Origin: Eledone cirrhosa
Lineage: Eukaryota
DNA: 64,000 nt
Reading direction: 5' to 3'
NCBI GenBank assembly: GCA_964016885.1
Contig: OZ024748.1
Span: 1,860,001 to 1,924,000, forward strand
Part shown: one piece after another, positions 3,035 to 54,697 of the stretch
Numbering within the stretch: position 1 is the stretch's first letter
Layout: the number at the start of each line of letters is the position of its first letter
Made by a program: the position numbers and the translations under genes
Notes under the pieces: model-generated
Databases searched by the model: none
Seen by the model: only the letters and a program-made list of their open reading frames with translations
What the model was told of the DNA's origin: nothing

Positions 3035-3287
3035 GTATTAGAAAGTGAGGTTTTTTTACAAAATGAAAAATAACCGAGGTGTCCTACACGAGTGGAAGTA
3101 TAAAGAAAAAAAGATGAAATCGAAAATGCAACTGGAGTTTTATTTTAAAAAAAACATATATATTTATTTGGTTCCTTTACCGGTTTCGCAGTTCTTCTGC
3201 TTTTCAAAAGTAAAGGAACCAAATAAATATATATGTTTTTTTTAAAAATAAGACTCCAGTTGCATTTTCGATTTCATCTTTTTTTCT
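3035..3287 (-). mobile_element. Fold-back Penelope-pLTR-like element with hammerhead in the loop
   Basis: Near-perfect inverted arms 3104-3180 / 3210-3287, unpaired tail 3035-3103, flanked by (TA)n and (CT)n(TA)n. Confidence 0.7.
3175..3210 (-). ncRNA. Minimal type I hammerhead ribozyme, U3-A8 core variant
   Basis: Minus strand: ctt UUGAAAA gcag-aagaa-ctgc GAAA ccgg UA aag. Perfect 4-bp stem II, palindromic stem III ACCGGU, GUA triplet. Confidence 0.65.
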
Positions 3288-4800
3288 CTCTCTCTCTCTC
3301 TCTCTCTCTCTCTATATATATATATATATATATATATATATATATATACATACATACATACACACATGCTTGTGTGTGTGTGTGTATATATATGTGTGTG
3401 TGTATATATATATATATGTGTGTGTGTGTGTTTATATATGTATTGCTTTCTATTAATGGCTAGTGAATCCTCTCCTCGTAACCATTCCTTTTCTTACCCC
3501 CACTCTGCAATTCTTTTAACGTATATTTAAATTAAAAGCACCATTTCATAGATATAACTTTTGTTTTCAATCTTCATTGCTGCTGCTCCTGCTTTATAGT
3601 TAGTGTAGGTGTTTCCCCAGCTTCTACATTGCTGCTGGGTTATATTTAGATTGTATTGGGGGAGGGGGTGGGGGTGATTCCCCATTTATTTTATTAAAAC
3701 TGTCTTCACATGTTCACATGCTTTTTTTTATAAATATATTTTGTCCAAGTTTTTTTTTGTGTTTTTTTTTGTTTTTTTTTTGTATATGAAAAATATTTAA
3801 TTTTGGTTAGAGTACTTTCATTGGAGAAATGTAGATACTTTAATAGATTTCAGGATATATTTGTGGTTTCCTGTACATTTGTGTATGTCTGTATATATTT
3901 ATACACACATACACACTAATATGTATATATATATATATATATATATATATATATATAATACTTATACACATACACACGCATACAAACATATATATATATA
4001 TGCACTTAAACATATTTGTTTATATATATATATATATATATATATATATATATATATATATATATATATAATCATTATCCTATTGAGTCAAAGAATTGAG
4101 CATGTGAAACTAACAGGTTTTCCAGTTCATTGGCTCCTTAACATATGCAGACGACAAAAACCTCCTGATCTTCGACCATAAGTGGGTTCTAGTGTTTCTA
4201 ATCATAATATATACATTTGTTAAGGCCGCTCTGCTCTTTTCTATGTTTACCTTTTCGCATTTAGAATCAAAGATTTAGAATCAAAGAAACCAACATTGCA
4301 ATGTAATTATTCTGAAACTCGTTCTGCATACAGAACTAACATGTCTACTTTGACTAGCGGGGCGTACATAGAATTTATTGCTTGTTAAGAAATCTCTTGT
4401 TGCTGTATTAATAATATTTATTTCAGCCGTGAGTATTATCTTTATTTTTTTCCTTATTTTATCTCAATGCACTGATTATAAATTCAGTTTTGTATTTGTA
4501 TATATATTGTGTAAACAGGGCAGTCTCTAAGCTTTGCATAAACTTTCTGAACTTTCTTTCTTTTTTTTTTTTTTTTTGAGAATCTTCACACTTTTTATTA
4601 TTGTTAATTATGTATGTAATTACATACATGTATTTCACATTCTCTCTCTCTCATTCTCTCTTTCTCCCCCTACCACACACACATGGCTGACTATATACAC
4701 ACGTGCTTTCCTCTCATAAAAAAAAGTTATCTTTATTTTCTGTTTCATCCTCTTCTAACTCTCGTCTATCTTTCTATTTCTTCTTCTATCTCTCATTCCA

Positions 4801-4836
4801 TCTTCTGATGATGGACTAACATCCGAAATGTTAAGA
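4801..4836 (+). ncRNA. Decayed minimal hammerhead in a pLTR-like repeat (~4740-4935)
   Basis: tctt CTGATGA t ggac-taac-atcc GAAA tg TT aaga. Both defects are explained by CpG decay (cgtcc>catcc, aacgtt>aatgtt). Confidence 0.55.
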
Positions 4837-4942
4837 CTCTTTTCTTACTATATCAAGCGTTAAACTAATATATATCTCCATTGTACTGTACTGTTCCCCT
4901 ATATTGTTTTTCCTTGTTGACATTTTGAATATATAAAAAAAA

Positions 4943-5270
4943 AGGTATGTGGCTTAATGGTTAGAATGGTCAGTTCTCGATCATAAAGACATGAGTTCGA
5001 TTCCTGGACTGGATGGCACATTGTTGTCCCCAAGCAAAACGCTTTATTTCATATTGCTCCAATCCACTTATCAGGCAAGAATGAGTTGTACCTGTAAATC
5101 AGAGGACCAGCCTTTTCACACATTGTATCACACAGAATCTCTCTGAGAACTACATTAAGGGTGCACTGTGGAATGCTCAGCCACTTACACGTTAATTTCA
5201 CAAACGGGCAGTTCTCCTAATTGAATCACCTGGAGCACTTGGTAGAAGCAATGGAGGTCCAAAAATGACA
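4943..5270 (+). mobile_element. tRNA-derived CORE-type SINE (older copy)
   Basis: A-box tggcttaatggttag, B-box gagttcgattcc, CORE-like gtccccaagcaaaacgctttatttcatattgctcca. Homologous to 5887-6030. Confidence 0.75.
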
Positions 5271-54000: not shown

Positions 54001-54185
54001 GTATTTATCAGTTAAGAAACTATTAATACTGTACTGTTTGACCTAACATTAATTTTTAGACAACATATATTTAAAAAAGGTTTATGCAAATATGAAGTCA
54101 ACAGACGTAAAAAAAAGAATTAGTTCGCTTGTAATGTTAGCTTGCTTTTTATAATTCTATTGTTAAATTTTCAATGGACAGTGAT

Positions 54186-54265
54186 ATCTCCAGTAGTAAA
54201 GATACTATAAACATTTGATTAAACAAGCCTGTTTTTATATATTTTCTTCTACTGCTAAATCATTA
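54186..54265 (-). repeat. Third, inverted copy of the 1190-1270 segment
   Basis: atctccagtagtaaagatactataaacatttgattaaacaagcctgttttt is the reverse complement of that block. Confidence 0.65.
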
Positions 54266-54567
54266 CATAACATTCAGAGTTAAATAAATAACTTAAAGTC
54301 CAGATTTAAACTCAGTGTGTATAAATACAATATTTGGGGAGGGTGGGGTGTATGCAAACTGATAATTCAAGGTGAGTATAAAAAGAAGAAATCTTCAAAT
54401 AGCCACATGCCCCTTGCTTTTTGGTTCAGTGTTTTTTTGTATCTTGTATCAACATTTATTCTAAAGGTAAAAGTGGAATCCTTTATTCATTCATAAATGT
54501 GGGAGAAAAAATAAATACTTAAGTGTATATATATATATATGTGTATATATATATATATATACATACA

Positions 54568-54697
54568 CTTATTTTTTAAATTTGTTTTGCAAGATTTCTT
54601 ATCTGAAAATATGTGTTGAAACAGATATTGTTATACTTTGGGGGGATCATGCATGTGTTTTTATCGGCAGCGTGACCCTCCCAAAGTATAATAATAT
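54568..54697 (-). mobile_element. Mini fold-back of the PLE pLTR terminus
   Basis: Arms 54625-54652 / 54670-54697 match the PLE end at 47835-47880 (atattgttatactttgggagggtcatg); tail 54568-54624; TA flanks. Confidence 0.75.

What the first reader, a model, noticed from the sequence alone, without database searches (positions are those of the whole stretch)
3035..54697. Recurrent system: head-to-head fold-back mini-elements, mostly hammerhead-bearing, inserted in (TA)n
Seen: at least five families with little sequence similarity to each other (3035-3287; 5667-5861, 9662-9952 and 45551-46147; 14105-14675; 23144-23280; 54568-54697) share one architecture. A short inverted arm and a long arm have both 3' ends pointing outward, only the long arm carries an extra ~55-95-nt tail, and TA tracts flank both sides. 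Three of the families carry hammerhead cores, and the 54.6-kb one matches the terminus of the coding PLE at 47.8 kb. Established: Penelope-like elements carry minimal hammerheads in their pLTRs and often leave inverted pLTR ends with a 3' extension. Inference: these are PLE pLTR-only insertions or non-autonomous retrozyme-like RNAs, primed from both strands of a cut in (TA)n. About ten ribozyme motifs in 64 kb would imply a very large unannotated ribozyme load genome-wide.
Basis: partly seen in the sequence, partly recalled or inferred. Interest (0 to 1): 0.85.

Follow-up and report, generated by a model that had tools for sequence, protein, structure and literature searches.

The report
Head-to-head Penelope run-off insertions
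These mirror-image pieces in TA repeats are the short end segments of five known-type jumping genes (Penelope-like elements), and their joints suggest that each was likely made by copying the capped front end of the element's RNA twice, once from each side of a cut, rather than by a self-cutting ribozyme RNA.

Summary
The architecture is real and genome-wide. Each named element belongs to a high-copy family whose tailed arm and tail-less inverted arm end at fixed points in (TA)n. All five families are the terminal repeat (pLTR) of a coding Penelope-like element (RT plus GIY-YIG), and inverted pLTR, tail, (TA)n target and hammerheads are all published PLE features. The retrozyme reading fails: in family B, head-to-head joints lie at one upstream site in about 3,000 loci, at the hammerhead cut site in 19, and 35 nt further upstream in 0. 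In families A, B, B2, C and D that site is the A of an initiator-like motif; in B and D the arms often carry an untemplated G there, as a copied mRNA cap would give. Of 28 scorable joint-selected loci, 27 have exactly one full tail and one a partial tail. Most likely both cut strands prime at the two tail sites and run off the capped 5' end. No RNA data were found, so the start site is inferred. The window holds four intact-looking hammerheads, not ten. The scan noted such stubs before on other DNA.

The parts
3035..3287 (-). Family A insertion: tailed arm 3215->3035 (tail about 3035-3099), tail-less arm 3210->3287 on +; U3-A8 type I hammerhead at 3174-3210 on -
   Evidence: family 730 candidates; parent PLE in L292/L294; hammerhead read by eye, stem II folds
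5667..5862 (+). Family B mini: tail-less arm 5723->5667, tailed arm 5723->5862 (tail 5785-5862); joint at the inferred start site (about 5725); only the 3' half of the hammerhead (GAAAC 5743, cut triplet 5763-5765) in each arm
9662..9955 (-). Older B-related subfamily (B2): tailed arm 9813->9662, tail-less arm 9825->9955 on +; hammerhead decayed in this copy, C3-G8 core in other copies
13261..13434 (-).
14105..14675 (-). Family C insertion: tailed arm 14604->14105 with CUGAUGA hammerhead (core at 14297), tail-less arm 14603->14675 on + holding only the 3' half
   Evidence: parent PLE in L298
23144..23275 (+). Family D very short insertion joined at a TTAA palindrome; starts downstream of the family's hammerhead-like motif, so carries none
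   Evidence: parent PLE in L330/L339
39109..39202 (-). Family D solo tail between TA tracts
45551..46147 (+). Family B longer insertion: tailed arm 45695->46147 with full U3-A8 hammerhead outline (core 45964-45970, GAAA mutated, cut triplet 46047-46049); tail-less arm 45677->45551 with an internal deletion
   Evidence: parent PLE in L291/L300/L301
47835..49211 (-). 5'-truncated coding PLE (RT thumb, stop, GIY-YIG endonuclease, 3' UTR, hammerhead core at 48032), ending tail-less at the inner site; parent of family E
   Evidence: (GIY_YIG_2 E 0.01, under cut-off)
54568..54697 (-). Family E very short insertion: tailed arm 54651->54568 (57-nt tail), tail-less arm 54650->54697 on +; no hammerhead

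Best explanation
Each element is the pLTR end of a coding Penelope-like element, most likely written into a cut TA repeat as two separately primed cDNAs that were joined head to head. Shown: both arms copy the same pLTR sequence; one ends at an outer site (with tail), the other at an inner site (without); each family has an RT/GIY-YIG parent. Inferred, following PMC11167929: the protein cuts both strands of (TA)n, and each 3' end primes reverse transcription inside the RNA, one at each of the two sites that bound the tail, helped by 2-4 nt of TA pairing. Inferred: when the template is the element's own capped mRNA, which starts at an internal promoter in the pLTR only 135-280 nt upstream of the outer site, both cDNAs run off the 5' end, often copying the cap as an extra C, and are end-joined with small deletions or microhomology. 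This gives fixed-size minis (B about 195 nt), akin to strong-stop DNA. Templates that read through from upstream give longer, variably truncated arms. The minis are likely made anew each time and are dead ends; hammerhead cleavage does not set their ends. One RNA copied twice fits best (about 60%); two RNAs from one source on a dimer is the alternative.
For: Parents: A (L292/L294), B (L291, L300, L301), C (L298), D (L330, L339), E (window 47.8 kb); RVT_1 E 4.7e-8 for A and 4.8e-4 for C. Tail runs straight on to an ORF start in L291, L292, L330. Joint position in B: 3,362 rows, 89 loci per first 100 rows, so about 3,000 loci, against 0 loci about 35 nt upstream, 150 about 20 nt downstream, 19 at the ribozyme cut site. 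Unselected check: 17 of 32 B arms in 80 evenly spaced 10-kb stretches start in the 20 nt around that site. Same kind of site in A (517 loci; 1 of the first 50 holds 2 or more upstream bases), D (644 rows), C (35 rows), B2. Extra base: in D, 45 of 100 listed rows have C after the run-off point where the parent dictates A (A 27, G 20, T 8), and 11 of the 60 loci have it on both arms (hand count); in B 30 of 100 rows have C, 3 have T, while read-through copies with that base are 19 against 1,852. An extra G from the cap is known at full-length L1 5' joints (PMC11702581); Penelope's start site and internal promoter lie in the pLTR (PMC2377424, PMC8557442). One tail per locus: 20 of 20 and, in A, 7 full, 1 partial, 2 interrupted of 10. 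The tail-less arm reaches further 5' than the tailed arm in 7 of 18 C loci. Joint orientation is unrelated to tail side in A (5 against 4). Arms share alleles at 17 of 19, 17 of 19 and 16 of 18 loci at three C sites.
Against: No RNA run was listed, so start site and cap are inferred from DNA; the initiator consensus is recalled. In A and C the parent has C just upstream, so most joints cannot show the extra base. An untemplated C may come from terminal transferase activity rather than the cap. No sharp start site was found for E. The window's own A, C, D and E copies do not have their joints at the start site. In A read-through arms (2,438) outnumber start-site arms (1,034), so run-off minis dominate only in B. 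PMC11167929 reports initiation without homology to the target, whereas both sites here follow TA. Allele sharing is equally expected from fold-back copying, and 2 of 19 C loci are discordant.
Confidence: 0.8

Rival explanations
1. One cDNA folds back and primes on itself (self-priming, as proposed for rotifer Penelope palindromes); the inverted copy is then cut at the inner site and joined to the target.
For: Many joints are near-perfect palindromes; arms of one locus usually share alleles; PMC3846280 reads such palindromes as self-priming.
Against: The tail-less arm extends further 5' than the tailed arm in 7 of 18 C loci, which a copy of the tailed cDNA cannot do. Joints with zero or one base of loop and an extra base on both arms (11 of 60 D loci) do not fit a hairpin primer. 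Both strands are extended in vitro (PMC11167929).
Confidence: 0.09
2. The minis are non-autonomous retrozyme-like elements: hammerhead-processed RNAs that are copied as units by PLE proteins.
For: High copy number and fixed size of the B mini; hammerheads in all parents; 38 of the first 50 A joints are one of two mirror forms; animal retrozymes derive from pLTRs (bioRxiv 10.64898/2026.07.22.740005).
Against: Joints at the cut site are about 150-fold rarer than at the upstream site; the B mini lacks the 5' half of the core; joints vary from copy to copy and their orientation is unrelated to tail side; the named loci are head-to-head pairs, not tandem arrays.
Confidence: 0.06
3. The hotspot is not a transcription start but another fixed RNA end or RT stop (strong hairpin, 3' splice site).
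For: In A, B, B2 and D the site reads YAG like a splice acceptor; in B it lies inside the long stem II region of the ribozyme.
Against: Arms keep the AG and gain only a G, with no upstream exon; in C the site is ACT; the site falls in loop II (B), at stem I (D) and well upstream of the ribozyme (A, C), so no shared structure explains it.
Confidence: 0.04
4. Ordinary TIR MITEs with TA target duplications, or assembly fold-back artefacts.
For: TA flanks and inverted symmetry.
Against: The inverted arm matches an internal point, not the terminus; the same ends continue into RT/GIY-YIG ORFs; arms are diverged; short-read contigs show the inner end running into (TA)n in 4 of 4 runs laid, from one study.
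Confidence: 0.01

Closest known systems
Insertion units of endonuclease-bearing Penelope-like elements (Craig et al. 2021 PMC8557442; Arkhipova et al. 2013 PMC3846280)
   Same: Inverted 5'-truncated copy, one-sided tail, (TA)n targets, hammerhead in the pLTR, tail overlapping the region before or at the ORF start, palindromes at the joint.
   Different: Tails are 57-93 nt against the 30-40 bp published; many insertions are pLTR-only; the joint is pinned to an initiator-like A with an extra G, which the passages read do not describe.
Poseidon of Anolis carolinensis in vitro (Frangieh et al. 2024 PMC11167929)
   Same: Two internal RT start sites bound the tail; both strands are cut and extended; ribozyme cleavage is not needed.
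   Different: Here the two arms of one insertion use different sites in essentially every scorable locus, both sites follow TA, and the 5' fate of the cDNAs can be read from thousands of joints.
Hydra clade of PLEs (PMC8557442, section 11)
   Same: Parents of B, C and D show the listed motifs: RW, DKT (DKA in C), CxCX5C linker, CxxC and CxH around the conserved E and N, C-terminal endonuclease, (TA)n insertion.
   Different: No tree was built; parents of A (GxKF, DKG) and E (CX4CxxC linker) are of the canonical type, so the pattern spans more than one clade.
Minimal PLE hammerheads (Cervera and de la Pena 2014 PMC4209133) and non-LTR retrozymes
   Same: Type I fold, U3-A8 covariant, extra base after position 9, palindromic loop III, opposite-strand pairs 100-700 bp apart, mostly in truncated PLEs.
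   Different: Load estimated near 6x10^4 against 4,000-9,000 for the richest genomes in that paper (different descriptor); no tandem retrozyme arrays at these loci.
L1 twin priming and cap-derived G (PMC11702581)
   Same: Both target ends prime; extra G at complete 5' ends; end-joining with small deletions.
   Different: In L1 the two primed segments are adjacent and non-overlapping; here both arms copy the same segment.

Membership tests
EN+ Penelope-like element | Linked ORF with PLE-type RT and GIY-YIG endonuclease | tested here: met
   Parents found for all five families; RVT_1 over cut-off for A, under cut-off for C, GIY_YIG_2 under cut-off for E; 5 of 8 fragments had no Pfam hit; A's endonuclease not read in the copies fetched
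EN+ Penelope-like element | pLTR repeated before and after the ORF, with inverted truncated copy | tested here: met
   L291 and L294 have pLTR-ORF-pLTR, L294 and L298 an inverted copy
EN+ Penelope-like element | One-sided tail | tested here: met
   longer than published
EN+ Penelope-like element | Hammerhead motif in the pLTR | tested here: met
   A and B U3-A8; B2, C, E, F C3-G8; D has a U4A core. Rfam finds none in the window
EN+ Penelope-like element | Self-cleavage of the hammerheads | not testable with these tools
   needs an in vitro assay
EN+ Penelope-like element | Transcription start inside the pLTR | tested here: inconclusive
   inferred from joints; no RNA run listed
Hydra clade (B, C, D parents) | RW, DKT, CxCX5C, CxxC/CxH motifs, C-terminal EN | tested here: met
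   against PMC8557442 section 11; C has DKA
Hydra clade (B, C, D parents) | Phylogenetic placement | not tested
   no reference proteins on hand
Non-LTR retrozyme | Head-to-tail tandem units, each with a full type I hammerhead | tested here: not met
   named loci are head-to-head; commonest B mini has half a core
Non-LTR retrozyme | Unit ends set by hammerhead cleavage | tested here: not met
   19 joints at the cut site against about 3,000 upstream in B; other families not counted at their cut sites
Non-LTR retrozyme | Circular RNA | not testable with these tools
   no RNA run listed
TIR MITE | Terminal inverted repeats at both ends | tested here: not met
   inverted arm stops 57-93 nt short of the other terminus

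The most novel reading that the evidence does not exclude
PLE insertion is a coupled double-priming reaction on one capped RNA: one cut strand always takes the outer start site, the other the inner one, and a monomeric PLE mRNA can yield only a short start-site-to-tail run-off product joined head to head. This would explain at once the inverted pLTR, the one-sided tail, the mass of pLTR-only stubs and scattered hammerheads, and why active PLEs must be tandem; the joints would serve as a fossil map of PLE transcription starts in any genome.
Probability: 0.5. Interest if true: 0.72.

Novelty: new variant of a known kind. Interest (0 to 1): 0.5.

Why it matters
How PLEs make their inverted repeats and tails is named as open in PMC8557442, and PMC3846280 explains the palindromes by self-priming on an antisense template. 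This genome offers thousands of short joints per family that speak to the question: fixed 5' point, extra G, one tail per locus, ribozyme site unused. They give sharp predictions for the existing in vitro system (capped template, paired ends). For annotation, about 3x10^5 such loci (79 in 0.8 Mb) would be misfiled as MITEs, SINEs or retrozymes, and most of the genome's hammerheads are passengers of dead insertions.

Tried and rejected
Rfam: the E-value scan of the window was swamped by microsatellite hits; no hit at gathering score; two targeted scans found no hammerhead. RF00163 in the genome gave 18 matches among 74 scored candidates, all 8 fetched from another family with the same layout. 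Sequencing runs: no RNA holder listed. Folding of five motifs gave the three-stem outline for B, C and F with weak z-scores (-1.4 to -1.9); for 48032 it was -0.6 and for A the inverted arms dominate; not used as evidence. My descriptor missed the A and C motifs in the window, so its count is a floor; of 30 hits in 0.8 Mb I dropped 11 from one tandem repeat and 2 poor ones, keeping 17; shuffles gave 0, 1, 0 and the reversed control 0. An extra C in the short-arm homopolymer of B looked arm-specific but also occurs in a tailed arm; dropped as query bias. A subfamily with C before the B start site was tested as the source of the extra base and is too rare. No start-site hotspot could be fixed for E; the reference used was chimeric upstream. 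Target duplications cannot be read in (TA)n. Literature searches listed no paper that, by title or in the passages read, describes cap-marked head-to-head PLE joints; subscription papers and supplements were not seen and may bear on this.

Full report
Setting. The window is G000:C8:1860001-1924000 of a 3.0-Gb genome. About a quarter of it is simple repeat by my mask. The host looks like an octopus from its repeats; this is recalled, not tested.

Observation. After masking, local inverted matches appear at every named place: 3113-3278, 5671-5781, 9734-9814/9875-9955, 14208-14268/14603-14663, 23144-23187, 45569-45847; the 54.6-kb arms were seen by eye and. 5667, 9662 and 45551 are related (74-91%), and 54650-54691 matches 47841-47883. 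Each family is abundant: first-look candidates 730 (A), 3,885 and 5,365 (B), 2,212 (B2), 1,337 (C), 1,816 (E), 39 for the exact short D form and 2,120 for its upstream part. In 80 evenly spaced 10-kb stretches I found 9 A, 21 B-like, 13 C, 14 D, 17 E-parent and 5 F loci, 79 in 0.8 Mb, or roughly 3x10^5 genome-wide; small contigs were not sampled and small chromosomes are over-weighted. The 3' ends are two-peaked in every family, at the tail end and at an inner point 65 (A), 78 (B), 85-93 (C), 91-93 (D) and 57 (E) nt upstream.

Identity. Every family is the end of a coding PLE. B: long copies carry RT thumb and endonuclease upstream; in L291 the pLTR and tail run on to an ATG 93 nt later, and a second, tail-less pLTR follows about 3 kb on. 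A: same layout in L292 and L294, with an inverted copy. C: L298 holds ORF, 3' UTR and tail-less pLTR. D: the tail runs into an ORF start in L330 and an endonuclease region lies beside the match in several of 30 loci. E: the 54.6-kb piece is the end plus tail of the family whose tail-less coding fragment lies at 47835-49211. B, C and D parents have the motifs listed for the Hydra clade (PMC8557442 section 11); A and E parents have canonical motifs. No tree was built. Pfam support is thin: 3 of 8 fragments hit, one over cut-off.

Ribozymes. C, E, F and B2 have C3-G8 cores, A and B the U3-A8 covariant with palindromic loop III, D a U4A core (partly read by eye). U3-A8 and opposite-strand pairs are described in PMC4209133. 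In the window four motifs look intact. A strict descriptor kept 17 plausible of 30 hits in 0.8 Mb, against 0, 1, 0 in shuffles and 0 reversed, about 6x10^4 genome-wide and a floor. Activity was not tested.

Where the arms begin. In B, head-to-head joints within about 10 nt of one adenine number 3,362 rows, about 3,000 loci (89 loci in the first 100 rows by hand), more than the 1,852 arms that read through that point. Controls of like design gave 0 loci about 35 nt upstream, 150 about 20 nt downstream and 19 at the ribozyme cut site. In the unselected sample 17 of 32 B arms start in the 20 nt around it. The site lies in loop II of the ribozyme, so the B mini has only half a core. A has 517 such loci, 38 of the first 50 with a one-base centre, but 2,438 read-through arms; D has 644 rows, C 35 rows among 1,399 arms with the downstream anchor, and B2 shows the same point. 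In each the first base is an A after two pyrimidines, the shape of a Pol II initiator (consensus recalled). Penelope has an internal promoter and start site in its pLTR (PMC2377424, PMC8557442), and PMC3846280 notes an initiator-like motif in a rotifer pLTR.

The extra base. Reading each cDNA to its end, D rows show C after the run-off point in 45 of 100, A (templated) in 27, G in 20 (17 of them the start of the other arm), T in 8; 11 of 60 loci have the extra base on both arms (hand count). In B: C 30, A 41, G 26, T 3 of 100 rows; read-through copies with C before the site are 19, against 1,852 with T (patterns differ slightly), so it is not templated. A and C are mostly uninformative because the parent has C there. 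An extra G at complete 5' joints is read as the mRNA cap for L1 (PMC11702581). Terminal transferase activity is not excluded.

Pairing. Loci picked only by their joint have exactly one tailed arm: 10 of 10 D and 10 of 10 B (the B loci are the first ten, the D loci ten symmetric ones chosen from the first 56 rows), and of 10 A loci 7 full, 1 partial, 2 interrupted by other insertions. In C the tail-less arm reaches further 5' in 7 of 18 adjacent pairs, the tailed arm in 5, equal in 6, which a single folded-back cDNA cannot give. The two arms share alleles more often than chance (17 of 19, 17 of 19, 16 of 18 at three C sites with minor allele near 25%), which points to one template or one source locus. 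In A the arm that keeps the first adenine is the tailed one in 5 loci and the tail-less one in 4, so minis are joined anew, not copied as units. Inner and outer sites follow TA in all families where the run-through sequence was seen.

Mechanism. PMC11167929 shows in vitro that a PLE protein cuts and extends both strands, starts at two internal RNA sites that bound the tail, needs sequence 3' of them, and does not need ribozyme cleavage. Combined with the joints: both target ends prime, one per site; on the element's own capped mRNA the tail lies near the 5' end, so both cDNAs run off quickly and are end-joined. Long arms come from transcripts reading through an upstream copy. The window's 5667 element is such a run-off mini; the window's A, C, D, E, B2 and long B copies are other truncations of the same double-primed product. 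That minis are inert is inferred from their lacking sequence beyond the tail.

Known or new. Inverted truncated copies, tails, (TA)n bias and hammerheads are in print (PMC8557442, PMC3846280, PMC4209133); PLEs are annotated in an octopus genome without mention of ribozymes or palindromes in the main text (PMC13282606). What I did not find in eight searches is the start-site-pinned joint with an extra G and the strict one-tail pairing. Earlier notes of this scan report such stubs in this and other genomes, two of them suspecting the RNA start; I had written this reading before looking and tested it here.

Papers seen: PMC11167929 parts 1-2 of 4; PMC4209133 parts 1-2 of 4; bioRxiv 10.64898/2026.07.22.740005 parts 1-2 of 5; PMC8557442 passages and section 11; PMC3846280, PMC2377424, PMC11702581, PMC13282606 passages; no supplements.

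Verdict. Real, abundant, and a member of a known class; the retrozyme reading is not supported. The interest lies in the mechanistic record in the joints. Interest 0.5.

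Noticed in passing
window 13261-13434 (-): Sixth PLE-type family (F) with a canonical hammerhead and 10-bp stem II; other copies are head-to-head with one tail (L074, L090, L153). 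Parent ORF not sought.
   Followed up: partly
L355-L362: A further family whose hammerhead passes the Rfam RF00163 cut-off shows the same inner/outer ends in (TA)n.
   Followed up: partly
L101, L304, L330, L339 (family D pLTR): Hammerhead fold with a conserved U4A core change across many copies; activity unknown. The inferred start site is the first base of stem I.
   Followed up: partly
L291:905-1020 (family B pLTR): The inferred start site lies inside loop II, so the mRNA's 5' end could not form the ribozyme; only read-through RNA could. Stem II region is about 55 nt, much longer than usual.
   Followed up: partly
window 43558-45600 (-), 21499-22398 (-), 8700-9420 (+): Fragments of an RTE-like LINE reverse transcriptase (label recalled); the 43.6-kb one is a 680-codon open frame ending at a TA tract.
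   Followed up: no
window 55020-55620: Tandem repeat of about 29 nt holding a CTGACGA word in each unit; no hammerhead fold found by the descriptors.
   Followed up: partly
window 40233-40444 and 41831-42052; 37875-37938: Inverted copies of a different, SINE-like repeat and a short palindrome of it, not flanked by TA tracts.
   Followed up: no
random sample L211-L290: One tandem repeat gives 11 false hammerhead hits with a U3-A8 descriptor; genome-wide counts need a tandem filter.
   Followed up: yes
L017, L034, L039, L304, L348: Insertions of different PLE families stack in the same TA tract, and some joints fuse arms of two families (C with D in L039, C with E in L299).
   Followed up: no
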